Assembly (NCBI GenBank): GCA_949358305.1
Contig: OX442314.1
Span: 3,720,001-3,784,000 of the forward strand
DNA length: 64,000 nucleotides
Source: Strigamia acuminata
Lineage: Eukaryota
Reading direction: 5' to 3'
Shown here piece by piece: positions 6,210 through 41,588 of this stretch; the stretch's first letter is position 1; every line of letters starts with the position of its first letter. A model generated the notes under the pieces. That model made no database searches and had not been told where the DNA came from. It was given only the letters and a program-made list of their open reading frames with translations. A program made the translations under genes and the position numbers.

Positions 6210-6217
6210 TATATAAA
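6210..6217 (+). promoter_or_regulatory. TATA box of secreted-protein gene copy A
   Basis: TATATAAACACC ~90 bp upstream of ATG 6306. The same TATATAAACACC lies upstream of copy B on the minus strand (~37838-37850). Confidence 0.6.
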
Positions 6218-6305
6218 CACCACACAACACTAGACAAAACATTACAAATTTGCCAAGCTGCCACAACCGTTTCTCTGTGTTTATTGCCCGTCACTACATA
6301 GCAGA

Positions 6306-7162
6306 ATGTTCAACTTCTATTGTCATTTGATTCTCTTCTTGACCATTATTTATACAACCACTGCAACTGATGAGGATGTAAGTTAATTTTACACAATTAA
6401 ATTACTAATTTATACTTTTATTTATTTATTTATTATCAAGACTTGTGATGCGACTGAAAAGACTGCAGAGTTGGTTTGCAAAGTTTTGGAAAAGAGATTC
6501 ACTCAAGACAATGGCAAAGTATTCATTAAAAATTTCAAAACACAAATATTCCAGTAAATCAAATATAAAATATTTTAAATTTTTGTACAGTTCAGCAAGT
6601 ATGTGTGTGGCTGTGCACAAGCCATCATAGAATCAAAAGTAAAACCCAAAGTCATAAAAACAAAACTTTTTGGGCAATTACAATTTTTTTTTCATTTTTC
6701 AGCCCGACCTTTGTGATTCGAAAGATTATGATTATTCAGCAGCACCCAAGTGTGGAGAACTTTTCAAATCAGTATGTTAGAATAAAAACCACCTTTAATG
6801 AAATTTATACTATTTAAAAACGATTTTTCTGCATTTACCGTGTCTAGGAAGAGTATAAAGAAGCGAGCGGCAATAGAAGCATGCTCATCGATTATACTGT
6901 AAATGTTATGTTCAAAAAGAGCTTTAAAGTTTGTACCGAAAGCGAAGACAAAGTGATTGAACAAGCAGTTTCAATTTATCAGCCTGGAATAGCTTCAGAT
7001 ACTCTAGGTAAATGAGAAATATCTTTATTCGTCGTTCTTAAGCCATTTTTTAATTTAATTTTAGCTTACATGATTGAAAAGTCATTTAAACCTAAAGCGG
7101 TAGAATTATATCTGGAATGTTACCATCAATTGATAGAATTGGAATCCAGAGCTGAAGAGTAG
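6306..7162 (+). CDS. Predicted 6-exon secreted Cys-rich protein, copy A (~174 aa): exons 6306-6377, 6441-6518, 6591-6638, 6703-6771, 6848-7007, 7065-7162
   Basis: All introns are GT..AG and 57-76 nt with consistent phases. Product: MFNFYCHLILFLTIIYTTTA-TDEDTCDATEKTAELVCKVLEKRFTQDNGKFSKYVCGCAQAIIESKPDLCDSKDYDYSAAPKCGELFKSEEY...KVCTESED...LECYHQLIELESRAEE. It has a hydrophobic signal peptide, 8 mature Cys and AATAAA at 7216. Exon sizes match copy B. The end of exon 6 is uncertain. Confidence 0.8.
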
Positions 7163-9351: not shown

Positions 9352-9706
9352 TTGCTGAGATTCTTAGTCAGAGAAGTTTTCAACGGCGTCAACTCCGTCG
9401 ATGTGAAATGTGCGAAAAGCATCATCCAACGCTCGCAATGGACAGTCCACGGTCAATTAGACGTCAATAAAACAGCACGAGTTATTTCACACTCGCAATG
9501 CTTGAAAATGATGTCGAGATTCGCCGTCGCCGTCGTGTGTTGCGTCGCAGACGTCGTGCGAGATATTTGGAGCGAACACGCCGACAGTTTCCGAATACGT
9601 TTCGACAAGCAAAAGGAAACCAACTTGAAATGTATGATGTATGACTTCTGGAAAAGGACGATGATTAATAATCCCACTCACGACGAGAAATGGAAAATGT
9701 TTTTCC
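9352..9706 (+). pseudogene. Fragment of the BC-box-like gene family (third copy; its upstream region is at ~8030-8815)
   Basis: LRFLVREVFNGVNSVDVKCAKSIIQRSQWTVHGQLD... matches 1-1506; both ends are truncated. Confidence 0.8.
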
Positions 9707-11301
9707 TGGCTATTGATGCCTATAGTGATGTCATTGGCTTGGATGATATTTTGGTGCAATTTTCAAATTTGATCAATGTGAGTCAAATTTTTTGCTAGTT
9801 TATTTTTTGGTGGTTTTATTTTATTTTTGTTTTATATTTTACACTAATTTAGTAATGGCTCTGCTGCACATAGTTAACCTTTTCTGATGTAGAACTCTGT
9901 ACAGTATTCTGCTGACCTCTGCAGACTATTCTGCAGAAAAAGCCTTCTGCAGCTTTCTGGGAAATTTTTCTGCAGAAAAAGCTTTCAGTGGAATTTTTCA
10001 GCAGAAAAAGCTTTCTGCAGAAAAGGTTAACATTTTAATTGCTGCAGAATTTTGTAGAATTTGGTAATTTTTTTCTGGAGAATTTGGTAATTTTTTCTGC
10101 AGAATATTTTTCTGAATAGCATGCAGAAATCTGCAGAACTTTTTTTTACCTGGGGCTTTTTTAATTATTTAACCTTAATAATTCATCTGTATTTAACTGA
10201 ATAAAATTAGTGCTCATTTTATTTTAATCAATTTGTATTTATTTAATATTCCTAGACATTTCAGCCAGTTTAGAGTTTAAGTCCTATAAAGGGCATCTCA
10301 ACTGCGTGATTTATTATTTATTTAATAATAAGTTTTTAATTAGTTTTGACCAATATTATTTTGAAACTGAGTAGCAGTGTTAAAAATGTGTGTTAAATAC
10401 TGATAATTTGTGAAATATGATTTTATTCATGAGAAAAGCAAAAACTAGGTTTGAACATAATTTATTCTTGATTTACTTTCTGCATACAAATTCACAGATG
10501 AAATGTCAAACAAAATTTAATCACCACCAGCATCTTTATCATCTTTATCTTTCTGTGCTTTCTTTGAAGTCAGTTCAATATGACACTGTACAAAAAGGTT
10601 TCCTGATTTAGATCCGAGCCTGTAAGCGTCAACGACTAAAATAAAATTAAAAAAAAAAAAAAAAAAAAAAACATTATTACTGTATTCAGATTTCTGCTTT
10701 TTAACCCTCGGCCGCATAAGGGTAAAATGCGCCGTTCTGGTATAAGGCATTACGGATTTATGGACAATTTTTAGGTTCATTGGTCAAAGCGCAATTTAGT
10801 TTTTTTGTAGTTTTTTACTAATTTTATACTTGTAGAGGCCGAAATAAGTTAATGCAATAATAATGAACTTTGAACCATCTGGTGGTGGTTTTAAACACCA
10901 CCAGTAAATCCAAAAAGGCTCTTTACTAAAGCAGCAAAGCCTGTTTAAAAATTTTTCTGGAACTTTAAGGGGCAGAAAATTTCAATTCAGAATAAGTAAT
11001 TAAATAAACAACTAATACATACAAATTTCATACGAGTTAAAGTCTGACACCATATAAACAAAATCACAAATTTTCAGCAAAAAAAAATGATAGAAAAAAA
11101 ATTTCCCTATTCAAGAAAGAGCTTGTCTATAAATCCGTGTTATGCCTCCAAGGGTTAAAGACTTTTATTTAACTTGACATGAATATTTGTTTGTTTCAAC
11201 TACCGGCGTTGCTAGCCCCACCTGTACGTGACAGAAACTATAATGGATCCCAAAGGACCCGACCCGACTCTAAAACAGCTTTTATCGGTATGACTTTGGT
11301 A

Positions 11302-11488
11302 CAGTGTAAGTTCCGTAAACCGGACATAGGACTGGTCCCAGAAAGTTGTCCGGACTAAAAGGCTGTCCGGATGGGAGAGGGGATTTAGTATTGCTGGGTA
11401 TAGGTTGGGACCAAATCAGGACCTCCAAACTGTCCGGTCCACACAGCTGTCCGGACGGTGCTATGTCCGGTTTACAGAGCTTTCACTG
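11302..11488. mobile_element. Tc1/mariner/pogo-type MITE, TA TSD
   Basis: TIRs cagtgtaagttccgtaaaccggacatag / ctatgtccggtttacagagctttcactg flanked by TA; empty site at ~29323-29340 (gactttgg-ta-ccacaaga). Confidence 0.85.
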
Positions 11489-11997
11489 TATCACAAGAGT
11501 CTTCATCAATTCTGAAACCAGGCTCAGCTTCTAGAAGATTTAATGCGCTACAAACTTCTACTGTATATTATGTCTTTTAATATTGTAAAGAAAAAGTACA
11601 GCCTTGGACATAAAAATTGACTCAGTCCAGCTTGAAGCTCACCTGCAGAATGAGCGGTTTCAGCTGTATCCACCAGGTGGTGTAAAAACCCACTGATAAG
11701 TTATAATAAATTGTCTATGAAAAGTCTGTTTGGAAACGGTTGCATTCAGTGTTGGAAAGTCATTGGAAATTTGATGTTTGTACAATTTGGAAAATATAAC
11801 TTTCGGGTTTGGAAATTTTGCATTTCAGTTATATTTCCAAAATATTTTATGGATAAAAATCTAATTTTTTTGCAGTGTAAATATCAAAGAAATACCGGTA
11901 GCGAGATAAATAGAATAGAAATAGAATAGAATGGAAATATTTACCTGCCAAAATTTCTAGTTATTAGGAAATGGAATAAATATATATTACTTCTTAC

Positions 11998-12519
11998 CTA
12001 CACCTGTAGAAACTCTACCCTTTGTATAAATCTGGTTTGTGTTTTTAAATATCTCGTCCTCGCTTTGTTCATGACAAATCCTAAACTTATTTTGGTACAG
12101 ATCGTTTACATAGTAGTCATTGAGAACATTCTTCCTGTTGGCCACTACTTTAAACTCTTTCTAAACAGGTGACAAATGCAAATATTGTTTACAAAGAGAG
12201 ATCATGTTATAAAAGGGAAAAAAATAATAATTAGCTCACTGATTTGAATAATTTTCCACACTTAGATGATTTTGGAAAATCGTAGTCGCCTGGCTTGCAA
12301 AGTGTCGCCTAAAAATAAAGAAACAAAGTTGTCGGAAACGTTTATAGGAACAAACACGTTTGTCTTTACTACAAATTACATTTATTTCTAAGAGGCCGGA
12401 CATACAGCCACAGAAAATCTTGGAAAACTGAAAAATATAAACATGTTAGTGATAATTCAATGTAATATTTTGTCTTAAATCTACTTTGCCATCGTCTTCA
12501 GTGAAAACCTTGTTACCGT
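11998..12519 (-). pseudogene. 5'-truncated secreted-protein gene, copy C: partial exon 2 12519-12485, exons 12427-12380, 12308-12240, 12160-11998
   Basis: FSKIFCGCMSGLLEIN / ATLCKPGDYDFPKSSKCGKLFKS / KEFKVVANRKNVLNDYYVNDLYQNKFRICHEQSEDEIF...; splice sites intact, exon 1 absent. Confidence 0.75.
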
Positions 12520-12690
12520 TAAAACAGCACGAGTTATTTCACACTCGCAATGCTTGAAAATGATGTCGAGATTCGCCGTCGCGGTCGTTTGTTGCATCGC
12601 AGACGTCGTGCGAGATATTTGGAGCGAACACGCCGACAGTTTGCGAATACGTTTCGACAAGCAAAAGGAATACTACTTGAAAAGTAATAT
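12520..12690 (+). pseudogene. Short fragment of the BC-box-like gene family (fourth copy)
   Basis: KTARVISHSQCLKMMSRFAVAVVCCIADVVRDIWSEHADSLRIRFDKQKE, fused directly to the truncation point of copy C. Confidence 0.75.
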
Positions 12691-13745
12691 GTACCCAAGT
12701 AACACAACTATATAGAGGTAATGTGGCTGTGAGATAGACGGTCTATCTGTCTACATAGATGTATATCACCTAAGACGAAACTATCTAGTGGAAGTGTTCC
12801 ATCTATATCGGATTTTAGCGGAACGGTCGCGGAATTAACATCGCATCTATGTAGAGCTCTAGATTGCTTCAATTTGGATTCCAACCGGATATGATATAGA
12901 CGTTAAGAATGATAGACCGTAAATAGACTTTAAATAGAATTCTAGATAGCTTCCACACAAATTACCCTTGGTTCTACATAGCTGATATAATCAAGCCTTT
13001 TGCAGATAGAATTCTATATTGAAGCCGCTTTGTTACTACATGCAAAACTATTATTTTTTTATTATTAGAATTGTAAATGAATTCGAAAATAAAAATAAAA
13101 TTTTTTATTTTTTATTTTACTAAACGGGGGCTACAACACAATTGGTATATTTAATTACAGTTTTGGGTTATTGAGTTTGTAAAATTAATTTAATAATTAA
13201 ATAATTAAATTTGCTTGGCACATTATCCAACCACGAATAACTTCTTTTCCGTCCAATCCCAATCGTCCTTATCGTTCGCGTAAACTCTTTTGATTATGTC
13301 ATTCATAGTCGTCTTCCCTGTTATGATTAAATAAAAAACAATTATAAATAAAATATTTTCAACTTTAAAAGTAATATTCCCTAACCTTTGTGTGAAGTTT
13401 GGGGGTCGAGGGGTCAACAGTGTTGGTTCCTATTCGGTTCCACAAAGATTTCGAATGTCCAAGTAATGAAAACACACGTTGTAACGGGAACATAAAATAA
13501 CACGTCTTTACTTTACGGTAAATTTTACAACAATTCAATTGCACGTGCATTACGTGCGTGCAACGTTCACACATTTGATAACGTTAAAACCTTTGATAAT
13601 TTGTAACAATAGATTAAATCTAACAAACCCTCCTTACAAATTTTTATAAGTTTTGAAATGAATTAAGAAAAACTAAAACTAACATTCAATGAAATTCGAA
13701 AACAAAAACAAAAAACATGAATAAAATATTATTTCGAACTTAAAA

Positions 13746-16700
13746 CTATTTGTCTTCGTCTTCGTTCTTCTCTTCGTCCTCGTTTATCTTAACTTCTCCT
13801 CTCAGACTCACGCCGTCGCGTCCCTCCATGAATTTGTCTTTCGCGACCGCCTTCGTCAGGAAATCAGCAATCATGTCACCTGTTGGTAAATGGATTAATT
13901 CAATGTTGCCAAGTTTTATCTCGTCCCTTATGAACATCAAGTGTCGGTTCATATGTTTAGTTCTTCCAAACTGGTTCGAACCGCACAAAATCTGCATTGC
14001 TGGTTGACTGTCCGTGAAGATTGGTACTTTTCTCTGCACACAGCTTCCTTCGCCCACTTCACTCAAAAAGTCTCGCGCCCATTTTATGGATTTCAGCAAT
14101 TCGCAGATGGCCAAAATCTCGCTTTCTGTCGATGACATCGCGACTAATCGTTGTTTTTTGGTTTTCCACGTTATTGTTGTTGATCCAATTTTTACTATCA
14201 TCCCTGTATGTGATTTTGCATCTTGGGTGACGTTCCAGCTTGCGTCCGCAAATCCTTGTAATTTCCCCTCCTCATTTGAGAAAAACAATCGCATCTCAAT
14301 CGTCTTCTTCAGATATCGCATCACTCGTTTGACCGCTCTGAAGTGTAATTGGCGCGGATCTCTTGAATATGCTGACAACGCACTTATTGCGAATGATATG
14401 TCCGGTCGTGATATTATCATCACGTGCATCAGCGATCCTATCATTTGCTGATAAAGTTGCTGGTCGACTCTTTTCGATTTCTCAAAATCATCTAAGTCTT
14501 GTCCAGTAGCCATTGGTGTGTTTGCAGTGACTCCGTCCATCAGCTCGTATCTCTTCAAAACATCGTTTATGTATTTTTGTTGACCAATTAGAATTCCGTT
14601 GTCCATTATCGAAATTTCCATTCCCAAAAGAAAATGCACTTCCCCCAAGTCAACAATTTCAAAAACTCGTTTTATCTTCTTTAGAATCCGGTCCAATATC
14701 TTTTGACTAGTAAACGCTGCCAAAATGTCATCTACGTACACCCCCAGAATAATAAAGTCATTTTTTCTCTTGTAAATATACACACACCTGTCGTTGATTA
14801 GTGGTGTCAGGCCAATTTTCTGCAATTCCGTGTCCAGTCTCTCGTTCCAACATCTCCCTGATTGTCTCAGGCCGTACAGGCTTCGTTCAAGTCTGCAAAT
14901 CAAGTCCTTCTGTTCATATCCCTCCGGCTGCTCCATGAAAATCGTTTCATCAATCAGGCCGTACAGGTAAGCTGTTTTTATGTCAAATTGACGCGTCATC
15001 AATTTGTGTTTGGCCACCATGGATAAAATGATGCGGAGTGATTCGACTCTTACAACTGGCGAGAAAGTTTCCGTGTAATCAATGCCTGCTCTCTGGGAAT
15101 ACCCCACTGCCACCAATCTTGCCTTGTATTTATTTACACTCCTGTCCACGTTGAGTTTTATCCGATAAATCCATTTGCTCTTTATCGTAGTCATTTGTTT
15201 TTCCTTCTTCACCAATGTCCAAACATTGTTCACGTGCAATGAGTCTATTTCACTATCCATCGCCGTTTTCCATTTTTCTTTTTCGTCGCAATTTATTGCT
15301 TGCTCGTATGTTTCCGGTGTAAATAAGTCGTCAACGCCTTCGAATGCTATATTCGCTGCTTCAACCGCTGCATTTACTGCTTCATGTTGTGCTGCGATGC
15401 GCTGTGATCGTCGTACACCTTCTTGTTGCAATTGTTGCTCACGCTGCTCCATTTGTTCCGCGTGTCGCTGCTCGAGCACGGCTTGTGTTGTTCCCCGAGG
15501 TCTGCCAATCTGCGCTGGTTGATCTCGTTGCAGCTCTTGTTGTTCATCTTCAACAATCACTGCAGGCTGTTGAGCATTGTTGTCATCGTTAGCATTTGTT
15601 TCTCCAATTGCCTCGTCTTCGAATTCTTGACAAAAACGCCTATTCTCGTCCGGTTTTGTCAAATTAAAGATGTCCGCCCCTCGAATTTCTTCATTAAATT
15701 CCACCGTTCTACCTTCTTGTATTTTCTTTTCTGCTGGGACGTAAATCCTAAACGCCTTTCTATCCGTCGAATATCCCACGAATATTCCGCGTTTTGCTTT
15801 TTGATCAAGCTTTTGCCTCTTCTCTGCTGGGATGTGCAGGAAAGCCTCACAACCAAAAACTCGAAGATGTTTTATTGATTGCTTGCGCTTCATCCACATT
15901 TCTTCTGGAACTAAATCCCCATTTGGTTTCGTCAAAGTTCGATTTTTTACGTGTATCGACGTTGAAAATGCTTCGGCCCAAAATATTTGCGGTAGGCCCG
16001 ATTCCAAAAGTAATGTCCGTGTCGCCTCTATGAGCGTTCGATTCGTACGCTCCGCAATGCCGTTGCTGGCTGCATTAAATGGCACTGTGAGCTTGTGCAA
16101 TATGCCTTCATCGTTGCATAAACGTTTAAAATTCTCGTTGACAAACTCGCCTCCGTTGTCGCTTCTAATACGCTTTAATTTGTTCCCCGTTTGCTTTTCC
16201 GCCATTGCTTTAAATGACTTGAAGAAATCAAATGTTTGAGATTTCTCGCTCATGAAATAAGCAAACTTCTTGCGCGTGAAGTCTTCAGTAATTACAAAAG
16301 CGTACCTGCTTCCTCCCATTGATGGTGTCTTGAATGGTCCAATCAAATCCATGTGTATTAGTTGCAAAACATCATCCGATTGCTTCTCGTTTATTCGTTT
16401 GTACGGGCTCTTCGTCATTTTTCCGAGTATGCACGCGGTGCATTTCTCCAATGGTGCATTGTTGTATTCCAACCCGTAAACCAATTCCTTGTTGGTCATC
16501 TTGTCGATTGTTCGTTCGTTTGCATGACACAATCGTTTATGCCATATTTCCTTGGTTTGTTTAGTTGTCGTGGCAACCGCATTCGCTTGCTCTTCTTTTT
16601 TCAGTTGCAATAAATACATGGTGCCACACTTCGCTCCCTTTCCAATCGTCTCTCCAATTGGACTATTAATGTCCGCCCAGTTTCCTCTGAATTGAACGGT

Positions 16701-17846: not shown

Positions 17847-17961
17847 TTTTCACGACGTTCGATTTTCGAATTCCGTCACGTGCGCACTTCGTTCTCACTC
17901 GAATCTTCGAAAAATGTCGTCTGAGTGCCGTGGATACTTCTTTTCGAAGAAAAACCGGCCT

Positions 17962-17971
17962 TCTGCTACCA
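17962..17971 (-). promoter_or_regulatory. Copia primer-binding site, initiator tRNA-Met
   Basis: TGGTAGCAGA, 2 nt inside the 5' LTR, is complementary to the 3' end of eukaryotic tRNAiMet. Confidence 0.8.
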
Positions 17972-27433: not shown

Positions 27434-29648
27434 AATTTTCAAATTTGATCAATGTGAATCAAATTTTTTGCTAGTTTATTTTTTGGTGGTTTTGTTTTAT
27501 TTTTGTTTTATATTTTACACTAATTTAGTATTGGCTCTGCTGCACATAGTTAACCTTTTCTGATGTAGAACTCTGTACAGTATTCTGCTGACCTCTGCAG
27601 ACTATTCTGCAGACCTCTGCAGACTATTCTGCAGAAAAAGCCTTCTGCAGTTTTCTGGGAAATTTTTCTGCAGAAAAAGCCTTCTGCAGTTTTCTGGGAA
27701 ATTTTTCTGCAGAAAAAGCTTTCTGCAGAACTTTTTCTGCAGAAAAGGTTAACATTTTGCTGCAGAATTTTGTAGAATTTGGTAATTTTTTTCTGGAGAA
27801 TTTTGTAGAATTTGGTAATTTTTTTCTGGAGAATTTTGTAGAATTTGGTAATTTTTTTATGGAGAATTTGGTAATTTTTTCTGCAGAATACTTTTTTGAA
27901 TAGCATGCAGAATTCTGCAGAACTTTTTTTTTACCTGGGGCTTCTTTAATACCTTAATAATTCATCTGTATTTAACTGAATAAAATTAGTGCTCATTTTA
28001 TTTTAACCAATTTGTATTTATTTAATATTCCTAGACATTTCAGCCAGTTTAGAGTTTAAGTCCTACTTGTATAAAGGGCATCTCAACTGCATAATTTATT
28101 ATTTATTTAATAATAAGTTTTTAATTAGTTTTGACCAATATTATTTTGAAACTCAGTAGCAGTGATAAAAAATGTGTGTTAAATACTACTGTACTGATAA
28201 TTTGTGAAATATGATATTATGCATGAGAAAAGCAAAAACTAGGTTTGAACATAATTTATTCTTGATTTACTTTCTACAAACAAATTCACAGATGGAATGT
28301 CAAGCATTTCAATCAAACAAAAGTTAATCACCACCAGCACCTTTATCATCTTTATCTTTGTAAATGTGTTCGGAAGTAGGAAATGGTCCACGAGTGTTGG
28401 TCGAGTTTGTCTAACTGACTTTATTGGCCAAAAATACAAAATGGCTGAAGCCCAAAAGGATTAAGATAGCAGAACATGATTGGTTGGGCGGGGGGAGGGG
28501 TGGCGGGCGCCACCTCAAAGGAGTTGGCTGCACATATAAGGCAAAGCCTTACAATATTTTCTGCTTTTTCTTTAATCTAAGTTCTTTAGTACAGAAGTTA
28601 AAAAGTAGTGCTAAATTAGGTCTGAGCGTGGAGACTGCAGCCGCTAAAATAAAATTTAAAAAAGAAAAAAAAAAAACATTATTACTGTATTAAGATTTCT
28701 GCTTTTTACCCTCGGAGGCTTAAGGGTAAAAAATATGCGCCGTTCTGGTGTAAGGCATTTCGGATTTATGGACAATTTTCAGGTTCATTGCTCAAAGCGC
28801 AATTTAGTTATTTTTGTAGTTTTTTACTAATTTTATACTTGTAGAGGCCGCAATATGTTAATGCAATAATAATGAACTTTGAACCATCTGGTGGAGGTTT
28901 TAAGCACCACCAGTAAATGCAAAAAGGCTGTTAACTGAAGCGCTCTTTACTAAAGCAGCAAAGCCTGTTTAAAAATTTTGCTGATGGAACTTTAAGGGGC
29001 AGAAAATTTCAATTCAGAATAAGTAATTAAATAAACAACTAATACATACAAATTTCATACGAGTCAAAGTCTGACACCATATAAACAAAATCACAAATTT
29101 TCAGCAAAAAAAATTGATAGAAAAAAAATTCTTTATTCAAGAAAGAGCTTGTCTATAAATCCGTATAGCCTTATGCCTCCGAGGATTAAAGACTTTTATT
29201 TAACTTGACATGAATATTTGTTTGTTTCAACTACCGGCGTTGCTAGCCCCACCTGTACGTGACAGAAACTATCATGGATCCCAAAGCACCTGACCGAACT
29301 CTAAAACAGCTTTTATCGGTATGACTTTGGTACCACAAGAGTCTCCATCAATTCTGAAACCAGGCTCAGCTTGTAGAGGATTTAATGCGCTACAAACTTC
29401 TTTCGTACTGTATATTATGTCTTTTAATATTGTAAAGAAAAAGTACAGCCTTGGACATAAAAATTGTCCCAGTCCAGCTTGAAGCTCACCTGCAGAATGA
29501 GCGGTTTCAGCTGTATCCACCAGGTGGTGTAAAAACTTACTAATAAGTTGGAGTATAATAAATTGTCTGTGAAAAGTCTGTTTGGAAACGGTTGCATTCA
29601 GTGTTGGAAAGTCATTGGAAATTTGATGTTTGTACAATTTGGAATATA

Positions 29649-30558: not shown

Positions 30559-31401
30559 CTAGATCTAAAGGAACTGCACCTCTTTTATAAAGCTTGTTTG
30601 TGTTTTCAAATATCTCGTCCTCGCTTTGTTCATCACAAATTTTAAACTTAATTTTGTACAGAGAGTTTACATAGTAGTTACGGAGATAGTTGTTCTTCCT
30701 GTTGGACAGTAGTTTAAACTCGTTCTAAACAGGTGACAAATGCAAATATTGTTTACAAAGAGAGATCATGTTGTAAAAGGGAAAAAAATAATAATTAGCT
30801 CACTGATTTGAATAATGCTCCACACTTGGGTGATTCTGGAAAATCGTAGTCTTGTGCCTTGCAAAGTGTCGCCTAAAAATAAAGAAACAAAGTTGTCGGA
30901 AACGTTTATAGGAACAAACAGGTTTGTCTTTACTACAAATTACATTTATTTCTAAGAAGCCGGACATACAGCCACAGTAAATCTTGGAAAACTGAAAAAT
31001 ATCAACATTTTAGTGATAATTCAATGTAATATTTTGTCTTAAATCTACTTTGCCATCGTCTTCAGTGAAAACCTTGTTACCGTAGTTGCACAGCGCTTCG
31101 GCTGTTCTTTTAGTTGGATTGCATCCCTTGAAAAGTGAAGTCATTGAATTAGTACAGTTGATACCAATATGGATATGAGAAAATTTAACAATTTACAAAC
31201 AAAATTCAGTATTTAAACATTAAAATTGAGAAAATCACGTATAGAAATGCTATTACTGTGCGCCATTACCAATACAGGTTATATAAGTGTGACACTCGTG
31301 GATCAGGACAATGTGCATAAAAGCTAACTTACACTCGAATCCTCAGCTGTAGCCGTAGCAATAGCAGCGAGAATAAGAAAGAAACAGTTGAGGTTCAGCA
31401 T
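30559..31401 (-). CDS. Secreted Cys-rich protein, copy B: exons 31401-31333, 31126-31049, 30991-30944, 30872-30804, 30724-30559; exon 6 unresolved or disrupted
   Basis: MLNLNCFFLILAAIATATA-EDSS / GCNPTKRTAEALCNYGNKVFTEDDGK / FSKIYCGCMSGFLEIN / ATLCKAQDYDFPESPKCGALFKS / NEFKLLSNRKNNYLRNYYVNSLYKIKFKICDEQSEDEIF...; GT-AG sites and phases match copy A. Confidence 0.75.
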
Positions 31402-31943
31402 TCTGCAATGTGTGTAAAATCTAGACTGATTTAATTTGTTTTTAATGTTTATTCATGTATTTGATTTTAGTAATTTTGTCTTAGTTTAATTATCGATTGA
31501 ATTTAGTGATTGATTTGTGTTTATTACAATTAAGTGTTTTGTGTTTTGTTTTGTGTTTTGTGTTCTTTTTCATTCATTGTGCCTTATTGTGTATTATCGT
31601 GTTTAATTGTGTTTCATCATGGTTTTTGCTGACTTTTCAGTTGTGTTATTGCATTAAATTGTCTGTGTTCTTTTTGTGTTATATAAATCGCTCGAGGGTC
31701 TTTTCGAGAGCCCTCTTTTATGTAAATTGGGTATCTTTCGGCCCTTGTTGACCGGATGTAGACCCCGTTTTTTCTATGTAACCCACATTCCACCCTCAAC
31801 TCGCTGACCACGCGTCACTTGTGAAAAAGAATGTCATTTTTCAACTCAAGTAAAATTAAAAGTTGTTAAGTTTTATTTCGACCGTCGCTTTTGCTGTTTT
31901 ACAATTCATCACCCATCGTGAAGTTCATTTACAATTCGTAAAT

Positions 31944-31961
31944 TGGTGCCGAAACCCGGGA
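31944..31961 (+). promoter_or_regulatory. BEL primer-binding site, tRNA-Phe
   Basis: TGGTGCCGAAACCCGGGA is an 18-nt complement of the eukaryotic tRNA-Phe 3' end. Confidence 0.9.
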
Positions 31962-32029
31962 CATCTTTCCAGGGAACAAACTCGTAACTTCAATCTGAAA
32001 AAACTGCAAGTAGCATCTCGAATTTAACA

Positions 32030-35000
32030 ATGGCCGACGACCTCGCCGTGTTGAAGGCTCAGCGTGCAGTAACCCGTAGGCTGACCACCACAACTATAAC
32101 GAAGGCCAAAACAATTCTCGCTGGTATACCTATAAATGAACTCGATTTAAAAAAGATAAAAGTGCATCTACAAGCAAAATCAAATGAACTCAAATCGCTC
32201 GACGCCAAAATCTTGGCCATGCTCACCGACGAACAAGAGATAGATGAAGAAATCACTCGATCCGAGACTGAATATCACGAAAAAATTATTGATTGTGGTG
32301 TCGAAATCGACGAGGCGCTAATTACTTTCATCGCGCCCCCAACCACACCTGTACTCCCGCCGATAACAAATAATTACCACGGGACCGCGAGTGTGCCACA
32401 AGACTCACCCATGCGACTGCCCAAGTACGACACAATTAAATTCAAAGGAGATCCGCTGGACTGGGCTGACTTTTGGGGTAATTTTGAGATCTCAATTGAC
32501 ACCAAAACGAACATTTCTGCGCAAAGTAAATTGGTGTATTTAAAGTCGCTCTTGGATGGAGAAGCAGCACTCGTGTTGAAGGGATTACCGCCAACAAATG
32601 AAAACTATCCGATCGCTAAAAAATTGTTGCTCGAACGCTTTGGCCGTACAGATGTTCTTCTCAGCGCACATTTACGCTCCCTAATGAAAATGAAACCCGT
32701 ACGTGATATTCTCGATCCTATTCCTCTTCAAAAATTGTACGATGAGTGTGAAACACACGTACGCGGTCTGAATGCGGCAAATATGAATGTTGATGCCATT
32801 GACGCAACAGCGTGTCCACTCATTCTAGGACTAGTGCCACGACAAATTTCGCTGGAATTTTCACGTCAATATCCCGACGGGAAATACAAAGCTAAAGATT
32901 TGTTGGACATGGTGCGTAACGAACTCGTGCACCACAATAAAATTGAGAACTTTCAAGATCTTCACCGCTCAACAGAGAAAAGCAAACCTGAAAAAATTGA
33001 GGTAGACAAATCCAATCAAAAACCCAATCGTGTGCCGTCTGCTCGTGTTTTGAGCACAACAATTACTAATTGCATGTTTTGCAACAAGACTCATGAGCGT
33101 GACGGGTGTTTGACTACCGCAACCGAACGTAAAGAGTTCGTTAAAAAGGAAGGTCGCTGTTTCAAATGCTTAAAAAAAGGACATTCGTCTCGAAACTGCA
33201 CCTTCCGTGTTACGTGTAAACTGTGTCAACGCCATCACAACCAACTCGTGTGCGAAGGCCCATCTGAGACGCCAAAAGAAAAAGTCACTTTGCTCGTATC
33301 AACAAACGAAAACCTCGCTGCGTACGCACAACCTCCAACCGCAACATTGGCAACAATATTCGTAAAAATTCAAAACGAATCTCGTGAGTCCATCGTGCAG
33401 TGTTTGATCGATCCGGGAAGCCAGAGTTCCTTCGTACTGGCTAGTTTGGCAAAAGACTTGCATTTGAAGCCGAATGGAGAAGAACATTTAAACGTGCACA
33501 CTTTTGGAAATCAGACACCGTTGAACACTAAAGGAAATCGATTTGAACTCAAATTGTGCAATGTTGGCGACAAAAATCGATCGCTCTGCGTTAATGCGCT
33601 TGAAACGCCATGGATTACAAAACCCATTTGTACCAAATTGCAGGCTGGCTTACGAGCCGCCCTCGAACGCGATCAAATCGTGATTGATTCTGGAAACAAT
33701 ACTAATTGCGATATTTTTATTCTTTTAGGCGCAGACTGTATCGCGAAGATACTTACGGGATGCATACGAAAAATCGAGGAAAATTTGATCGCCATAGAGA
33801 CGCTATTTGGCTGGACTTTGATGGGGTCATCAATAAATGTCACGACAATGTCCACACTAGTCACCCGCGTGTGCAGTGTGCGTCTCGAGGAGCGACTGGA
33901 CGAGAGTCTGAAAAAATTCTGGGAGCTCGAATCCATCGGCATTCGCCACGAGGGTGAAGACGAAACATTGACCGATCGAAATTCCTGCGCAATTCGTTTT
34001 CGCGAACAAGTGACGAGAGAAGAAGGAAGATACGTCGTCGCATTGCCGTGGTTGGTCGAACCGAGAAAACTTCACAATAATTACGAAATTGCTGAGAAAC
34101 GTTTTTGGAATCTGGTAAGAAAATTTAAGAAAAATCCAGGATTCTACGCCGCCTACAAACAAATTTTCGACGATCAAATACGTGATGGAATAATCGAAGA
34201 AGTTAATGAACCGCAACATGAAAATTCGTACTACATGCCACACCGAGCCGTTATTAAAGAAGATCGCGTCACGACAAAGATTCGGATCGTTTTCGATGCC
34301 TCAGCTAAAGGAAAAAATGAACTTTCACTGAACGATTGCCTGGACAGCGGTCCTAATTTGCTGCCAGAAATACTTATATTGCTGATTTTGTTTCGAAAAG
34401 AACCATTTGCTTATCTTTCGGACATAGAAAAGGCGTTTTTACAGCTATTGCTGAGAATGGCAGATCGGGATTTCGTTCGTTTCCTTTGGACACCGGAAGA
34501 ATGGGACGGTCGGCAGTTTGTGAAGCCCAGAGTTATGCGCCAGAAAAGAGTAGTATTCGGAGTCAAATCAAGTCCCTACCTTTTAAACGACTCAATTCAA
34601 CTACATCTCGACAACATGCGTGAAAAATATGAAGAAACAGTTGCTCAAATCAAAGATAAATTTTACGTCGACGACTTGCTCGGTTGCGCCAAATCCGAAG
34701 GGGAGGTGGAAAAAATATTCCACGAAGCTCGCAAATTGATGATGGAAGCGCACATGCCCCTACGCAAATGGCAATCGAACTCACAAAGCTTGCGAGAACT
34801 TTTTGCGAGAGAAATTCCGTCGGACGCAAATCTGGTCGACGCCGACAAACACTCGACGTCCGTGTTGGGACTGATCTGGAACTTTATAACCGACCACCTC
34901 CTGCTCGAAATAGGCGAATGGGCTGACGCACAAGATCAACTCAAGGAATCAAAACGTTTGATCGTTCAGTCCGTGGCAAGGATTTACGATCCATTAGGAT

Positions 35001-37219
35001 TTGCGACACCATTCGTAATTGTCGGCAAACTGATGTTCCAGGAATTATGGACTCGAAATATAGGTTGGGATTCGCCATTACCCCCCGACATTTCAAAACA
35101 ATGGTCAAGTTGGCGACAACAAGTCGTATTGCTAAGAAAAATTGCCGTTCCTCGACATTACAGCGCTGGACAACAATCAAATCCAGATCGTGAATTGCAT
35201 TTGTTTTGCGACGCAAGCCCCAAAGCATATGGAGTCGTGGTCTACATTCGAACAAAAAATGAAACATCCGTAGAAGTCACACTCTGTATGTCGAAGTCGC
35301 GCGTTGCACCACTGAAGTCTTTAACGCTGCCCAAACTCGAATTGATGGGCGCATTGCTGCTGTCGCGAGTTGCCGTGAAACTCAAGAAGTTAGAAATTCA
35401 GCGTGTTTTCTACTGGACCGATTCGTCCATTACATATTTCTGGATTCGCGAGCAACAGAAGAAGTCAAATCCATTCGTCTCGAACCGAGTCCGCGAAATC
35501 CGCACGAACACCGAGGTCGCCTGTTGGCGTCATTGCCCGGGGAAGGTCAATCCAGCGGATAAGTTAACCCGAGGAATGGAGGCCGACAAATTGGTTCAAG
35601 ACATCGAATGGTGGAGCGGCCCTGAGTGGCTGAAAAAGGACGAGACACATTGGCCACAAAAATTCGACGAAGAAACAGAGTCCAACTTTGAAGAAGAAAT
35701 TGAAGAAATAGATACTCGCGTAAATGTGACTCGATCAAGTGAAGAGGCGATTTTCGATATTGAAAAGTACAGCAGTTGGACCAAAGTCAAACGAATCACC
35801 GCCTGGATTTTGAGATTTTGCCACAATTCAAGAAAAATCGAAACAGTCATCGGACCGTTAAAGACGGAAGAGTTAGAAACAGCCGAAATTTATTGGTTGC
35901 GCAGTATACAAAAACAGAGATTTTCGGAGGAAATATATAGCTTGAAAAATTCAACGAAACTGAAAAGCGATTCACCCCTAGCAAGCGTAGCCGTAGTTCT
36001 CGACCAGAATGAAATTATACGAATCGACTCGAGAATACGTTTTAACACGGGAATAGAAAATTTTGTGAGCCCCATCGTTTTGGATTCAAATTCACCGGCT
36101 GTAAAATTAATAGTCGAAGATTGTCATCATAGAACTTTACATGGAGGACTAGGCAACACTCTGTCAGAATTTAGAGCGAAATACTGGGTTAAAAAAGGAA
36201 GAAAATTCATCAAGACATTGATTTCCCGATGCGTGACTTGTCGAAGAGTGAACGCAAAATTGATGACTCAAACGGTCGGTCTGCTACCTGCGGACAGAGT
36301 GAATCGTGCGGAGCCATTTCAAATTATTGGCATAGACTTCGCCGGACCACTATACACTAAAAACGGAAAAAAGACTTACATCGCTCTGTTCACTTGTGCC
36401 GTGGTGCGAGCTGTTCATTTAGAACTTGTATCTGATCTCACTACGGAGAAATTCATTCTCGCATTTAAACGACTTATTGCAAGAAGAGGAGTCCCTGGCA
36501 TTGTCTACTCAGACAATGCTAAAACCTTTAAGCGAGCCGAAAAAGACTTGTCTTTATTCATCAACAGCTTCTCGCACGAGCTGTTCCAGGGGTTCTTGTC
36601 AAAGCAAAAAATACAGTGGAAATTTATCGTCGAATTGGCTCCGTGGTGGGGCGGATTTTGGGAGCGACTGGTCAAAACTGTTAAACTGAGCTTAAAAAAA
36701 GTCCTTGCTCGATCATCGTTGGACTTTGAAGAACTGTCGACCGTTTTGACAGAGGTCGAAGCTGCGGTTAATTCGAGACCAATCACTTACGTTACGGACG
36801 ATCCGTTGGAGCAAGAACCGCTGACGCCTTCTCATTTTTTGACCGGAGGACGTCTCATCACGCTTCCAGACGTCTACAGTCCAGAAAGTCGTGTCGACAA
36901 TTCATTTCGACCCGAGCTCGTGAAGCGATGGAAGCTGCGTCAACGTTTGATTAATTTGCTTTGGCGTCGTTGGACGCACGAGTACCTTGTCGAGCTTCGT
37001 GAATTCCGTCGTGTACGAACCTCAAAAGAAGTTCAAATTGGGGATTTGGTTCTCATTCAAGAACAAGGTCAGCCTCGAATGTCATGGAAAATGGCAAGAG
37101 TTTCAAATACCTTTATCGGACGGGACGAAAAAATACGCTCTTGTGAATTGACTTTGCCCGAAGGAAAAACTTTGAGACGCCCAGTACAAAGACTGTGTTC
37201 TTTAGAGGCTTCAGACTAA
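32030..37219 (+). CDS. BEL/Pao Gag-Pol polyprotein (1729 aa)
   Basis: Gag (FKGDPLDWADFW), three Cys-His boxes, protease LIDPGSQ, RT (YYMPH, RIVFDAS, FYVDD), RNase H-like LHLFCDAS, integrase (IDFAGP, YSDNA, WWGGFWER). Confidence 0.97.
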   Translation: MADDLAVLKAQRAVTRRLTTTTITKAKTILAGIPINELDLKKIKVHLQAKSNELKSLDAKILAMLTDEQEIDEEITRSETEYHEKIIDCGVEIDEALITFIAPPTTPVLPPITNNYHGTASVPQDSPMRLPKYDTIKFKGDPLDWADFWGNFEISIDTKTNISAQSKLVYLKSLLDGEAALVLKGLPPTNENYPIAKKLLLERFGRTDVLLSAHLRSLMKMKPVRDILDPIPLQKLYDECETHVRGLNAANMNVDAIDATACPLILGLVPRQISLEFSRQYPDGKYKAKDLLDMVRNELVHHNKIENFQDLHRSTEKSKPEKIEVDKSNQKPNRVPSARVLSTTITNCMFCNKTHERDGCLTTATERKEFVKKEGRCFKCLKKGHSSRNCTFRVTCKLCQRHHNQLVCEGPSETPKEKVTLLVSTNENLAAYAQPPTATLATIFVKIQNESRESIVQCLIDPGSQSSFVLASLAKDLHLKPNGEEHLNVHTFGNQTPLNTKGNRFELKLCNVGDKNRSLCVNALETPWITKPICTKLQAGLRAALERDQIVIDSGNNTNCDIFILLGADCIAKILTGCIRKIEENLIAIETLFGWTLMGSSINVTTMSTLVTRVCSVRLEERLDESLKKFWELESIGIRHEGEDETLTDRNSCAIRFREQVTREEGRYVVALPWLVEPRKLHNNYEIAEKRFWNLVRKFKKNPGFYAAYKQIFDDQIRDGIIEEVNEPQHENSYYMPHRAVIKEDRVTTKIRIVFDASAKGKNELSLNDCLDSGPNLLPEILILLILFRKEPFAYLSDIEKAFLQLLLRMADRDFVRFLWTPEEWDGRQFVKPRVMRQKRVVFGVKSSPYLLNDSIQLHLDNMREKYEETVAQIKDKFYVDDLLGCAKSEGEVEKIFHEARKLMMEAHMPLRKWQSNSQSLRELFAREIPSDANLVDADKHSTSVLGLIWNFITDHLLLEIGEWADAQDQLKESKRLIVQSVARIYDPLGFATPFVIVGKLMFQELWTRNIGWDSPLPPDISKQWSSWRQQVVLLRKIAVPRHYSAGQQSNPDRELHLFCDASPKAYGVVVYIRTKNETSVEVTLCMSKSRVAPLKSLTLPKLELMGALLLSRVAVKLKKLEIQRVFYWTDSSITYFWIREQQKKSNPFVSNRVREIRTNTEVACWRHCPGKVNPADKLTRGMEADKLVQDIEWWSGPEWLKKDETHWPQKFDEETESNFEEEIEEIDTRVNVTRSSEEAIFDIEKYSSWTKVKRITAWILRFCHNSRKIETVIGPLKTEELETAEIYWLRSIQKQRFSEEIYSLKNSTKLKSDSPLASVAVVLDQNEIIRIDSRIRFNTGIENFVSPIVLDSNSPAVKLIVEDCHHRTLHGGLGNTLSEFRAKYWVKKGRKFIKTLISRCVTCRRVNAKLMTQTVGLLPADRVNRAEPFQIIGIDFAGPLYTKNGKKTYIALFTCAVVRAVHLELVSDLTTEKFILAFKRLIARRGVPGIVYSDNAKTFKRAEKDLSLFINSFSHELFQGFLSKQKIQWKFIVELAPWWGGFWERLVKTVKLSLKKVLARSSLDFEELSTVLTEVEAAVNSRPITYVTDDPLEQEPLTPSHFLTGGRLITLPDVYSPESRVDNSFRPELVKRWKLRQRLINLLWRRWTHEYLVELREFRRVRTSKEVQIGDLVLIQEQGQPRMSWKMARVSNTFIGRDEKIRSCELTLPEGKTLRRPVQRLCSLEASD

Positions 37220-39269
37220 TTGAATTCCCCCCCCCCCAATGTAAAATCTAGACTGATTTAATTTGTTTTTAATGTTTATTCATGTATTTGATTTTAGTAA
37301 TTTTGTCTTAGTTTAATTATCGATTGAATTTAGTGATTGATTTGTGTTTATTACAATTAAGTGTTTTGTGTTTTGTTTTGTGTTTTGTGTTCTTTTTCAT
37401 TCATTGTGCCTTATTGTGTATTATCGTGTTTAATTGTGTTTCATCATGGTTTTTGCTGACTTTTCAGTTGTGTTATTGCATTAAATTGTCTGTGTTCTTT
37501 TTGTGTTATATAAATCGCTCGAGGGTCTTTTCGAGAGCCCTCTTTTATGTAAATTGGGTATCTTTCGGCCCTTGTTGACCGGATGTAGACCCCGTTTTTT
37601 CTATGTAACCCACATTCCACCCTCAACTCGCTGACCACGCGTCACTTGTGAAAAAGAATGTCATTTTTCAACTCAAGTAAAATTAAAAGTTGTTAAGTTT
37701 TATTTCGACCGTCGCTTTTGCTGTTTTACAATTCATCACCCATCGTGAAGTTCATTTACAATTCGTAAAATGTGAGGCGAGCAGCAGACAAAGAGGAATG
37801 GTTGCAGCAAATGTGTTGTTTTCCACCAGGTGCTGTTTGGTGTTTATATATGCTTTGGACAATGATTGATGTCATAAATCAGCTAACGTAATATTGTCAA
37901 TGGCAGCTGCACAAGATGCATTTCCACTCTATTGTATTCAATTTTGAAAATTATCCGGGTGTTGACAACAAAGAGTTGACGTTTAAAAAACAAAAATTTA
38001 TTTTATCCTAGGTTTTTTCCTTTTTCTGTCTTCAAATTTCCGACCCATTGTAAGAATATACAGTTTGTACTTGAAAGTAGTTTACAGACACAGTTGCAAT
38101 CAAGCTATTAAAAATACATCAACATGATGATAAATTGTGACCTTTTACACTGAGATTCATCGGGGCCCTATTTCAGTTGATCAGTTCATCAATTGAATTG
38201 GTCACAACAATTAAATTGACCAATTTCCTTGTGATTTGATGGAATTTTGTTGTTCATTTAGTATTAAATGCGTATCAAGGATGTAGTTGAGGAAACTGTA
38301 ATGTAAGGGATGTAGTTGAGGAAACTGTAATGTAAGGGATGACTAAATTGAAGTCATCAATTTGTTCAAAATAATTGTGTCAATAATAGCACCTGGCATG
38401 TGTAAAAAAAAACTCTTGAATTGAATTCAATAGGGACAATAGTGTTGCTTGCAACAGAAATTGATGGAAAACTAGAAATTTTTGTTTTTTCTGAAATTCT
38501 TTTGCTCATTGCTTATTTAGCTATGCAAAAACATTTGTTTCAAATAAATGCATTGGCCAAATTTGACAATCAATTTACCGTATTTTACCGAGTTAGAGCC
38601 GCGGCTCTTATTCAAAAATGCTACTTTCAGCCGCGGCTATTAATCGAGTGCGGCTCTTAATCGAGAGCGGCTCTTATTTTAAATTGTGGCCGATATCTCA
38701 ATGTTACGTTCATTGCCCTGGCAACTGCCCCTGTGTTTCCAACTTGTTATTTTTTCCAGACACACATAAAAAAATAACAATAAAATAAACAGATATGATT
38801 CTGATATAAAAAATAAAATATAAATTTAATTTTCCTGGTGACCACCAGGCCACCACAAGCTAAGCACTGCTAAAACATCTAGTTTCATTATCCCAAAAGC
38901 GATCCAGTTAGGACTACACTGGAAAAATGACTTCTTGTATTAAGACGAGATAAAAATGCTATTGCGTATGCTTTTATTCTTAATTTTCTTTTTGAATGTA
39001 AATTGTCAGATTAAATGTCAAATATTTTGTCAAACAAGGGTTAATACCTGTAGCCGTTGAAACTGGTATTTTAACTTACTGTTAACGGATTTATGTGATG
39101 TAAAAGTGGTGCCCCTTGCCTGCATAGTCTTTAATAGGGTGAATGATGAGGCTCACTCAAAGGTCAAGAGGTAAAAAATTAAAAAATATGTTTAAATCAT
39201 CTTTGGTGTCAATTTATGTTGGTGTGTTTGGAATTTCCAATAGAATAAACAGAAACTCAAGCTCACATG

Positions 39270-40051: not shown

Positions 40052-40362
40052 GCGACACTTTGCAAGCCAGGCGACTACGATTTTCCAAAATCACCTAAGT
40101 GTGGAAAATTATTCAAATCAGTGAGCTAATTATTATTATTTTCCCTTTTACAACATGATCTCTCTTTGTAAACAATATTTGCATTTGTCACCTGTTTAGA
40201 AAGAGTTTAAAATAGTGGCCAACAGGAAGAATAGTCTCAATTACTTCTATGTATACGATCTGTACCGAAATAAGTTTAGGATTTGTGATGAACAAAGCGA
40301 GGACAAGATATTTAAAAACACAAACCAGCTTTATACAAAGAGTAAAGTTTCTAAAACTATAG
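40052..40362 (+). pseudogene. Secreted-protein gene fragment, copy D: exons 40052-40120 and 40200-40362
   Basis: ATLCKPGDYDFPKSPKCGKLFKS / KEFKIVANRKNSLNYFYVYDLYRNKFRICDEQSEDKIF...; exons 1-3 not found upstream. Confidence 0.7.
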
Positions 40363-41588
40363 GTAAGAAATAATATATATTTATTCCATTTCCTAATAAC
40401 TAGAAATTTTGGCATGGTAAATGTTTCCATTCTATTCTATTTCTATTCTATTTATCTCGCTACCGGTATTTCTTTGATATTTACACTGCAAAAAAAATTA
40501 GATTTTTGGCCATAAAATATTTTGGAAATATAACTGAAATGCAAAATTTCCAAACCCGAAAGTTATATTTTCCAAATTGTACAAACATCAAATTTCCAAT
40601 GACTTTCCAACACTGAATGCAACCGTTTCCAAACAGACTTTTCATAGACAATTTATTATAACTTATCAGTGGGTTTTTACACCACCTGGTGGATACAGCT
40701 GAAACCGCTCATTCGGCAGGTGAGCTTCAAGCTGGACTGAGACAATTTTTATGTCCAAGGCTGTACTTTTTCTTTACAATATTAAAAGACATAATATACA
40801 GTACGAAAGAAGTTTGTAGCGCATTAAATCCTCTAGAAGCTGAGCCTGGTTTCAGAATTGATGAAGACTTTTGTGATACCAAAGTCATACCGATAAAAGC
40901 TGTTTTAGAGTCGGGTCGGATCCTTTGGGATCCATTATAGTTTCTGTCACGTACAGGTGGGGCTAGCAACGCCGGTAGTTGAAACAAACAAATATTCATG
41001 TCAAGTTAAATAAAAGTCTTTAACCCTCGGAGGCATAACACGGATTTATAGACAAGCTCTTTCTTGAATAGGGAAATTTTTTTTCTATCATTTTTTTTCG
41101 CTAAAAATTTGTGATTTTGTTTATATGGTGTCAGACTTTAACTCGTATGAAATTTGTATGTATTAGTTGTTTATTTAATTACTTATTCTGAATTGAAATT
41201 TTCTGCCCCTTAAACAGGCTTTGCTGCTTTAGTAAAGAGCCTTTTTGCATTTACTGGTGGTGTTTAAAACCACCACCAGATGGTTCAAAGTTCATTATTA
41301 TTGCATTAACATATTGCGGCCTCTACAAGTATAAAATTCGTAAAAAACTACAAAAAAACTAAATTGCGCTTTGACCAATGAACCTGAAAATTGTCCATAA
41401 ATCCGTAATGCCTTATACCAGAACGGCGCATTTTACCATTATGCGTCCGAGGGTTAAAAAGCAGAAATCTGAATACAGTAATAATGTTTTTTTTTTTGTT
41501 TTTTTTTTTAAATTTTATTTTAGACTTAGAAACTTACAGGATCGGAAGTAAATCAGGAAATCTTATTATCGCGTGTAATAATGAACTG

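What the first reader, a model, noticed from the sequence alone, without database searches (positions are those of the whole stretch)
11998..12160. Exon 5 shows 16 substitutions, all non-synonymous, between near-identical duplicates
Seen by manual codon comparison: copy C (12160-11998) and copy D (40200-40362) differ at 16 of 163 nt, changing 14 of 54 residues with no synonymous change. The adjacent 79-nt intron differs at about 2 positions. Copy B's exon is more divergent still, with an in-frame 3-nt indel and no stops. Both exon-3 differences between B and C also change amino acids. Established: exon > intron divergence with dN >> dS typifies toxins, immune and gamete-recognition genes. Inference: strong diversifying selection on a variable surface of a fixed Cys scaffold, probably acting before C and D were truncated.
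Basis: partly seen in the sequence, partly recalled or inferred. Interest (0 to 1): 0.8.

Follow-up and report, generated by a model that had tools for sequence, protein, structure and literature searches.

The report
Fast-evolving centipede secreted protein family
Four copies of a small, predicted secreted, cysteine-braced protein gene, likely from a soil centipede, change amino acids in two exons far faster than their introns drift, which likely marks an evolutionary arms race on one surface of a protein with no known family.

Summary
Copies C and D differ at 16 of 163 nt in exon 5 (10 first, 6 second, 0 third positions; 14 of 54 residues; none synonymous), against 22 of 1,232 intron positions. 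Synonymous change in unchanged codons matches the intron rate, so an old conversion tract is not needed. The codon model gives omega about 10 for exon 5 across B, C and D (p 3e-4); exon 6 alone is not significant. Variable residues line one face of a predicted amphipathic helix, opposite its hydrophobic face. A public run holds a fully spliced copy-B transcript that confirms the exons and frame. Contig depths support B, C and D as separate loci. The only real relatives are two uncharacterised Strigamia maritima (centipede) proteins with the same eight cysteines; there is no Pfam or fold match, and motif searches of centipede venom catalogues found nothing. Verdict: real diversifying selection on an orphan secreted family in a transposon-riddled cluster. 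The pattern is known (gall-midge SSSGPs); the family and its partner are not.

The parts
11998..12160 (-). Copy C exon 5 (54 codons + 1 nt), hypervariable
   Evidence: separate contig at depth 107 in X1
40200..40362 (+). Copy D exon 5, hypervariable
   Evidence: separate contig at depth 91 in X1; no D-type contig among those laid from X3
30559..30724 (-). Copy B exon 5 (166 nt, 3-nt in-frame indel)
   Evidence: spliced in X6 contig
6306..7162 (+). Copy A, intact six-exon gene: e1 6306-6377 (signal-peptide-like), e2 6441-6518, e3 6591-6638, e4 6703-6771, e5 6848-7007, e6 7065-7162; about 174 aa, 8 Cys after the leader
   Evidence: GT/AG ends, open frames; tblastn to P0002/P0006
28549..31401 (-). 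Copy B: e1 31401-31333, e2 31126-31049, e3 30991-30944, e4 30872-30804, e5 30724-30559, e6 from 28643; stop at 28549 lies inside an insertion
   Evidence: X6 contig of 626 nt joins e1-e5 and runs on into e6
10517..12517 (-). Copy C, 5'-truncated: 3' part of e2 12517-12485, e3 12427-12380, e4 12308-12240, e5, e6 10635-10517; exon 1 and the first part of exon 2 are replaced by a repeat fragment (12520-12693)
   Evidence: the junction is seen as a loose end in X1
40052..41588 (+). Copy D, inverted and truncated at both ends: e4 40052-40120, e5, e6 41524-about 41588, then fused to a tandem repeat; exons 1-3 absent
10571..10635 (-). Homologous start of exon 6 (C shown; B 28643-28579, D 41524-41588), the most divergent part: C/D 15, B/C 26, B/D 27 of 63 nt
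10636..11997 (-). Intron 5 of C, the neutral clock: 20 of 1,153 aligned nt vs D, 45 of 1,168 vs B
31413..37769 (+). Bel/Pao LTR retrotransposon in the 5' UTR of B, 12 nt from the ATG; LTRs 99.8% identical, 5-nt target duplication; empty site in X6 and X3
37775..37900 (-). Displaced 5' UTR and likely promoter of B (TATA-like box)
   Evidence: the X6 transcript continues into 37775
28359..28553 (-). About 195-nt TG...CA insertion near the end of B exon 6 (likely a solo LTR); cuts off the acidic tail

Best explanation
This is a tandem family of six-exon genes for a roughly 175-residue, predicted secreted and helical protein with eight fixed cysteines, likely from a geophilomorph centipede, whose exons 5 and 6 were likely driven apart by positive selection on an exposed, probably partner-binding surface while introns and synonymous sites drifted at 2-4%. 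Shown: gene structure, splicing of a B transcript, the substitution pattern, truncation of C and D, and transposon insertions. Inferred: after each duplication the copies stayed functional for most of their separate history. Selection repeatedly changed the same outward-facing positions of the exon-5 helix (codons 5, 12, 15, 16, 19, 23, 30) and of the exon 5/6 end (44-54), while the hydrophobic face and the disulfide frame were held. Copies are then lost by transposon hits and deletions (birth and death). The partner is most likely a molecule of an enemy, met in haemolymph or a defensive secretion (about 45%); a reproductive partner (about 25%), a prey target in venom (about 20%) and other roles (about 10%) remain open.
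For: Exon 5 16/163 vs introns 22/1,232 (p 1.3e-6); non-synonymous sites 16/129 (p 6e-8); synonymous sites 0/33 (p 1). GY94: C/D exon 5 omega at the upper bound, p 9e-4; B/C/D exon 5 omega 9.85, p 3e-4; exons 4-6 omega 3.3, p 0.002. Synonymous differences in codons that keep their residue: C/D 2 per 47 sites, B/C 2 per 50, B/D 3 per 33.5, none above the intron rate (p 0.21, 0.53, 0.13). 8 of 16 C/D sites show a third base in B, against 0 of 20 in intron 5. The variability moment of residues 1-31 points 179 degrees from the hydrophobic moment (permutation p 3.5e-4; residues 11-31 p 8.5e-4). Both AF2 models of the relative place this stretch in a helix. A spliced B transcript and a further paralogue's transcript are in X6. 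Relatives T1J8A2/T1J8A1 share the leader and the 8-Cys spacing.
Against: Only three close sequences from one assembly; no site models and no population sample. Exon 6 alone: omega 1.8, p 0.35, so its excess is not shown to be selection by itself. Absence of synonymous codons alone has P 0.02-0.06. The helix test used three windows I chose, and one (residues 34-47) was not significant (p 0.39); surface sites tolerate change even without positive selection. The structure models are low confidence (pLDDT 44 and 53.5) and are of the S. maritima relative, not of these copies. No contig for C, D or A itself was seen in X6, and the tissue of X6 is not on record. No call shows a partner or an activity.
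Confidence: 0.8

Rival explanations
1. Introns and flanks were homogenised by gene conversion while the exons are older, as proposed for Hessian fly SSSGPs; the exon excess would then partly reflect age.
For: Exon 6 differs by 24-43% between copies whose intron 5 differs by 1.7-3.9%. Exon 6 has 1-2 synonymous codon differences per pair in only 4-12 unchanged codons. X3 likely pairs a C-type exon 5 with a B-type exon 4, so exchange occurs. PMC2955719 section 7 argues for this mechanism.
Against: Exon 5 C/D has 0 synonymous differences in 40 unchanged codons; pooled synonymous rates match the introns. Introns, the 3' UTR and flanks give one similar clock (2.2-3.5%), with 10 own changes each in C and D.
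Confidence: 0.1
2. One copy received a conversion tract from an older, normally evolving paralogue.
For: Further paralogues exist: one in X1/X3/X6 with 27-34 other letters, and several A-like ones.
Against: Such a tract would carry third-position changes (0 of 16; P about 0.001). C=B and D=B sites alternate along the exon. Exon 5 holds 3 changes own to C, 6 own to D and 7 three-state sites.
Confidence: 0.04
3. C and D are pseudogenes drifting without constraint, or sit in a local mutation hotspot.
For: Both are truncated in this assembly. No C or D contig in X6.
Against: Drift or hypermutation is blind to codon position; here there are 0 third-position changes, no stop or frameshift in the exon-5 frame, and a conserved hydrophobic face. 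The ts/tv ratio is the same in exon 5 (8/8) and intron 5 (10/10).
Confidence: 0.03
4. C and D are two alleles, or an assembly error, written twice.
For: In X3 only two exon-5 types occur and their depths (37.6, 40.8) could be allelic; contig depth is a rough measure.
Against: In X1, B, C and D exon 5 are three separate contigs (99, 107, 91) at the depth of unique flanks (105-124), while another paralogue sits at 45. C and D have different flanks and orientation. Even as alleles, the substitution pattern would need selection.
Confidence: 0.03

Closest known systems
Strigamia maritima uncharacterised proteins T1J8A2 (P0002) and T1J8A1 (P0006)
   Same: 179-180 aa, N-terminal hydrophobic leader, 8 Cys with the same spacing including CxC; profile E 2.2e-5; 24-38% identity over exon 5 and 35-46% over exon 2. 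The two are 73% identical to each other.
   Different: No function, name or Pfam family; another species or lineage; selection on them was not tested here.
Hessian fly SSSGP families (PMC2955719; abstract, sections 6 and 7 read)
   Same: Small secreted proteins in tandem and inverted clusters; coding regions diverge more than introns and UTRs; pairwise dN/dS 1.1-18.8.
   Different: No sequence relation found; gall-midge salivary effectors; there the authors invoke homogenisation of non-coding DNA, whereas here synonymous sites match the intron clock.
Aphid bicycle genes (bioRxiv 10.1101/2020.10.28.359562; passages read)
   Same: Secreted, cysteine-framed, multi-exon, clustered paralogues.
   Different: Defined by a pair of CYC motifs and 5-25 microexons with long introns; here six exons of 48-166 nt, mostly 57-79-nt introns, and a CxC motif.
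Centipede venom families GEOTX01/02, CHILOTX01, SLPTX (PMC6878950, PMC7864903, PMC11170834; passages and supplement searches)
   Same: Secreted, cysteine-rich, multi-copy, same animal group.
   Different: The GEOTX02 and CHILOTX01 entries seen are about 50-90 aa with other cysteine frames; exact motifs of this family were absent from the catalogues searched. The GEOTX01 sequence was not seen.
Conotoxins, snake PLA2 and three-finger toxins, abalone lysin (recalled, no call)
   Same: Exon above intron divergence, dN above dS on a fixed disulfide or helical scaffold.
   Different: No homology; analogy only.

Membership tests
S. maritima T1J8A1/T1J8A2 family (unnamed) | Sequence homology | tested here: met
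   Exon-5 profile hits P0002 at E 2.2e-5 among 1.84 billion proteins; P0006 tblastn hits B and C exons 4+5 at 8e-8 and 1e-7 in the window
S. maritima T1J8A1/T1J8A2 family (unnamed) | Leader plus eight cysteines with the same spacing | tested here: met
Catalogued centipede venom families | Protein found in milked venom or venom-gland expression | not testable with these tools
   The X6 library is not on record
Catalogued centipede venom families | Listed in the published toxin sequence sets | tested here: inconclusive
   No hit from a family member for exact motifs in supplements of PMC6878950 (file cut), PMC7864903 and PMC11170834 (file 6 has 1,183 S. maritima entries; its 15 hits for one 5-residue motif were S8 proteases in the 2 passages shown); exact-word search only, and GEOTX01 is not in file 6
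GEOTX02 | Short peptide (HMM length 74) with the 8/10-Cys frame shared with ascomycetes | tested here: not met
   size and cysteine frame differ
Hessian fly SSSGP | Coding divergence above non-coding divergence with dN/dS above 1 | tested here: met
Hessian fly SSSGP | Salivary-gland expression in a gall midge | not testable with these tools
   The relatives found are centipede proteins
Hessian fly SSSGP | Sequence homology | tested here: inconclusive
   No such hit; no SSSGP sequence was compared directly
Aphid bicycle proteins | 5-25 microexons interrupted by long introns | tested here: not met
   Six exons of 48-166 nt; 8 of the 10 introns of A and B are 57-79 nt
Aphid bicycle proteins | Pair of widely spaced C-Y-C motifs | tested here: inconclusive
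   By eye only: 8 Cys with CxC, no evident tandem pair; the motif spacing is loose by definition
Any Pfam family or solved fold | Profile or structure match | tested here: inconclusive
   No Pfam hit; Foldseek none at E 0.001; VIA best Z 5.4, rmsd 4.5, 111 aligned; models are low confidence

The most novel reading that the evidence does not exclude
The cluster is a myriapod recognition system in which exon 5 and exon 6 are swappable specificity cassettes: the expressed gene draws variant cassettes from neighbours, truncated copies such as C and D included, by conversion or unequal crossing over, on an undescribed disulfide-braced helical fold. Run X3 seems to hold a C-type exon 5 with a B-type exon 4 and its own exon 2, and lacks D, so the repertoire differs between individuals.
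Probability: 0.12. Interest if true: 0.82.

Novelty: new member of a known kind. Interest (0 to 1): 0.52.

Why it matters
Amino-acid divergence at roughly 7 times the intron rate (12.4% vs 1.8%) between copies so young is among the stronger signatures of an arms race, and it sits on a family with no name, Pfam entry or fold match in a group whose venom proteins were once described as slow-evolving (statement seen in PMC6878950, introduction). It points to an unknown conflict in centipede biology (immunity, defence, venom or reproduction) and names the residues that likely carry specificity, which makes the partner testable. The evolutionary pattern itself is known from gall-midge effectors and toxins.

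Tried and rejected
No whole genome is held, so other copies could not be read directly. The word-index search with the exon-5 alignment among longer proteins scored none of 726 candidates; only the exhaustive profile search found the relative. Its other two hits, P0001 (repeat protein, 6 short stretches) and P0003 (repeat ORF), were dropped as chance. Pfam: nothing for exon 5, P0002 (one hit below cut-off, E 0.094) or P0006. ESM Atlas: no usable hit for exon 5 or P0002. PDB sequence search: best E 0.038. Metagenome contigs: 0 of 595 pattern matches confirmed. Folds: pLDDT 44 and 53.5; Foldseek and VIA gave no clear match, which shows neither a new nor a known fold. The spliced window proteins themselves were not folded or searched whole, so their own structure is open. 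The ORF at 4525-5268 gave no taxonomic hint. No RNA holder was listed; X6 came in by species label. No contig of C, D or A itself in X6: not taken as evidence of silence. Earlier findings: nothing in 3 look-ups. One search had exon 3 and the end of C exon 6 off by one or two bases; exon 3 was redone. The fragment alignment was misaligned and used only for pairwise identities. Paper searches listed no paper that I could tie to this family; supplements that were cut or not held may still bear on it.

Full report
Observation. Copy C (12160-11998, minus strand) and copy D (40200-40362) differ at 16 of 163 nt. In the only frame open in both, 14 of 54 codons change and none is synonymous. Ten changes are at first, six at second and none at third positions. 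The 79-nt intron 4 differs at 2 positions. B's exon 5 is 166 nt with an in-frame 3-nt indel, and the two B/C exon-3 differences are Y5F and F12L.

Anatomy. The window holds four copies of one six-exon gene among LTR retrotransposons (copia 13421-18181, gypsy near 18500-23450 and 57800-62000, Bel/Pao 31413-37769). A (6306-7162, plus) is intact: a hydrophobic leader, eight cysteines in the mature part, about 174 aa. B has all six exons, but a young Bel/Pao element (LTRs 99.8% identical) sits in its 5' UTR and a 195-nt TG...CA insertion cuts the last residues of exon 6. C lacks exon 1 and the first part of exon 2. D lacks exons 1-3 and the end of exon 6. Exon 6 lies beyond a 1.2-1.9-kb intron and is the most divergent part: C/D 15, B/C 26 and B/D 27 of the 63 homologous nt, against 20 of 1,153, 45 of 1,168 and 45 of 1,154 in intron 5.

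The gene is real and spliced. Run X6 has no library record but behaves as RNA. One 626-nt contig skips B's introns 1-4 at the predicted ends, runs on into B's exon 6, and at its 5' end continues into the sequence beyond the Bel/Pao element, so it comes from an allele without the insertion. This fixes the frame of exon 5. A second X6 contig is the transcript of a further paralogue, and A-like paralogue transcripts are also present. No contig of C, D or A itself was seen in X6. In X1 the three exon-5 types are separate contigs at depth 99 (B), 107 (C) and 91 (D), like unique flanks (105-124), and C's 5' junction is present. X1 may be close to the source of the window, so this checks the assembly rather than adding an independent individual.

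Selection. Against the intron clock (22 of 1,232) exon 5 is in excess (Fisher p 1.3e-6). The excess is entirely at non-synonymous sites (16 of 129, p 6e-8); synonymous sites (0 of 33) match the introns. Sixteen random changes avoid third positions about once in 1,000 simulations; they avoid making any synonymous codon 2-6 times in 100. A GY94 model gives omega at the upper bound for C/D exon 5 (p 9e-4), 9.85 for B/C/D exon 5 (p 3e-4), 3.3 for exons 4-6 (p 0.002), 4.9 for C/D exons 4-6 (p 0.02) and 1.8 for exon 6 alone (p 0.35, not significant); one B codon at the indel was left out. Among codons that keep their residue, synonymous differences are 2 per 47 sites (C/D), 2 per 50 (B/C) and 3 per 33.5 (B/D), none significantly above the intron rate. 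So the exons are not older than the introns, as far as these small counts show. Sites where C equals B and where D equals B alternate, and 8 of the 16 C/D sites have a third base in B, against 0 of 20 in intron 5: the same positions are hit repeatedly in different lineages.

Where the changes fall. C/D changes at codons 5, 12, 15, 16, 19, 23 and 30 follow a helical period. Their moment points 179 degrees away from the hydrophobic moment over residues 1-31 (permutation p 3.5e-4; residues 11-31 p 8.5e-4; residues 34-47 not significant, p 0.39). Both AlphaFold models of the relative P0002 are all-helical and put much of this stretch in a helix, but they are low confidence (pLDDT 44 and 53.5). Five of the 14 changes alter charge. 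A fixed buried face with a changing outer face implies the changes arose while the genes were working, before truncation (inference).

Another individual. In X3, at the places shown, there are two contigs for the first part of exon 2 (0 and 10 other letters), one B-type exon 4, and two exon-5 types (B and C), with no D type; X1 has one such exon-2 part but three exon-5 types. The simplest reading is that X3 has a full-length gene with a C-type exon 5 and a B-type exon 4. Contigs do not span these exons and the tables were cut, so linkage is inferred, and allele versus paralogue is unresolved. B differs among runs at four codons that I could read from the tables: three change the residue and one is synonymous (the exon-2 one is inferred from the joint table).

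Relatives. The exhaustive profile search returned 3 proteins at E 0.001 or less; one, P0002 (E 2.2e-5), is a full-length relative and is UniRef T1J8A2 of the centipede Strigamia maritima. A search with it added only T1J8A1 (2 hits among 26 candidates). Both are uncharacterised and share the leader and cysteine spacing. The window is therefore likely from a geophilomorph centipede or kin (inference). Pfam, the ESM Atlas, PDB sequence and fold searches gave nothing usable.

Is it a venom toxin? Not shown. Exact motifs of the family were absent from the supplements of PMC6878950 (passages read; supplement searched, file cut), PMC7864903 (passages; supplements searched) and PMC11170834 (search listing; supplements searched; file 6 has 1,183 S. 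maritima entries but no GEOTX01). It is not GEOTX02 or CHILOTX01 by size and cysteine frame. I put the partner at about 45% enemy-derived (immune or defensive secretion), 25% reproductive, 20% venom target and 10% other; these odds are judgement.

Comparison and verdict. It works like Hessian fly SSSGPs (PMC2955719; abstract and sections 6-7 read), where mature coding regions outpace introns with dN/dS up to 18.8, and like toxin families I recall from memory, but no membership is shown. It fails the exon-intron layout of aphid bicycle genes (bioRxiv 10.1101/2020.10.28.359562, passages). A 2026 preprint (10.64898/2026.10.26.761191, two passages) reports positive selection in expanded centipede toxin orthogroups, so fast evolution in centipede secreted proteins is not without precedent. 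The finding is real and statistically solid for exon 5: a known evolutionary kind, on an unnamed family with an unknown partner. Interest 0.52.

Noticed in passing
window 31413-37769: Intact Bel/Pao element (1,743-aa ORF, LTRs 99.8% identical) 12 nt upstream of B's ATG; polymorphic, since X6 and X3 show the empty site.
   Followed up: yes
window 13421-18181: Copia element with identical 208-nt LTRs and an intact 1,367-aa ORF: a very recent insertion upstream of C.
   Followed up: partly
window 40050: D's 5' breakpoint falls exactly at the AG of the exon-4 acceptor, and new upstream sequence supplies a CAG; chance or use as a splice site is untested.
   Followed up: partly
window 9351-9708 and 12520-12693 (also 670-1259, 4039-4622): Copy C is flanked on both sides by pieces of one repeat family in direct orientation, a possible route for its duplication or 5' loss.
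   Followed up: no
window 670-1259, 3975-5271: Repeated ORFs (218 and 248 aa frames at 3975-4631 and 4525-5271) with no Pfam or database hit for the 248-aa one; nature unknown.
   Followed up: partly
window 41590-41810, 27720-27890, 10050-10100: A short tandem unit downstream of B, C and D has expanded to about 9 copies in D, where exon 6 is fused to it.
   Followed up: no
window 44054-46339, 51562-52971, 53970-56771: Long gag-like or low-complexity ORFs of other retroelements; no Pfam hit for the 761-aa one.
   Followed up: partly
runs X1, X2, X3, X6 laid on window 5900-7200 and 30480-31450: Further paralogues not in the window: one B-like copy at half depth in X1 and several A-like copies, some transcribed in X6.
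   Followed up: partly
window 42845-42926: Short near-palindrome (TATACGCGACGTCGCGTATA-type arms) in AT-rich DNA downstream of D.
   Followed up: no
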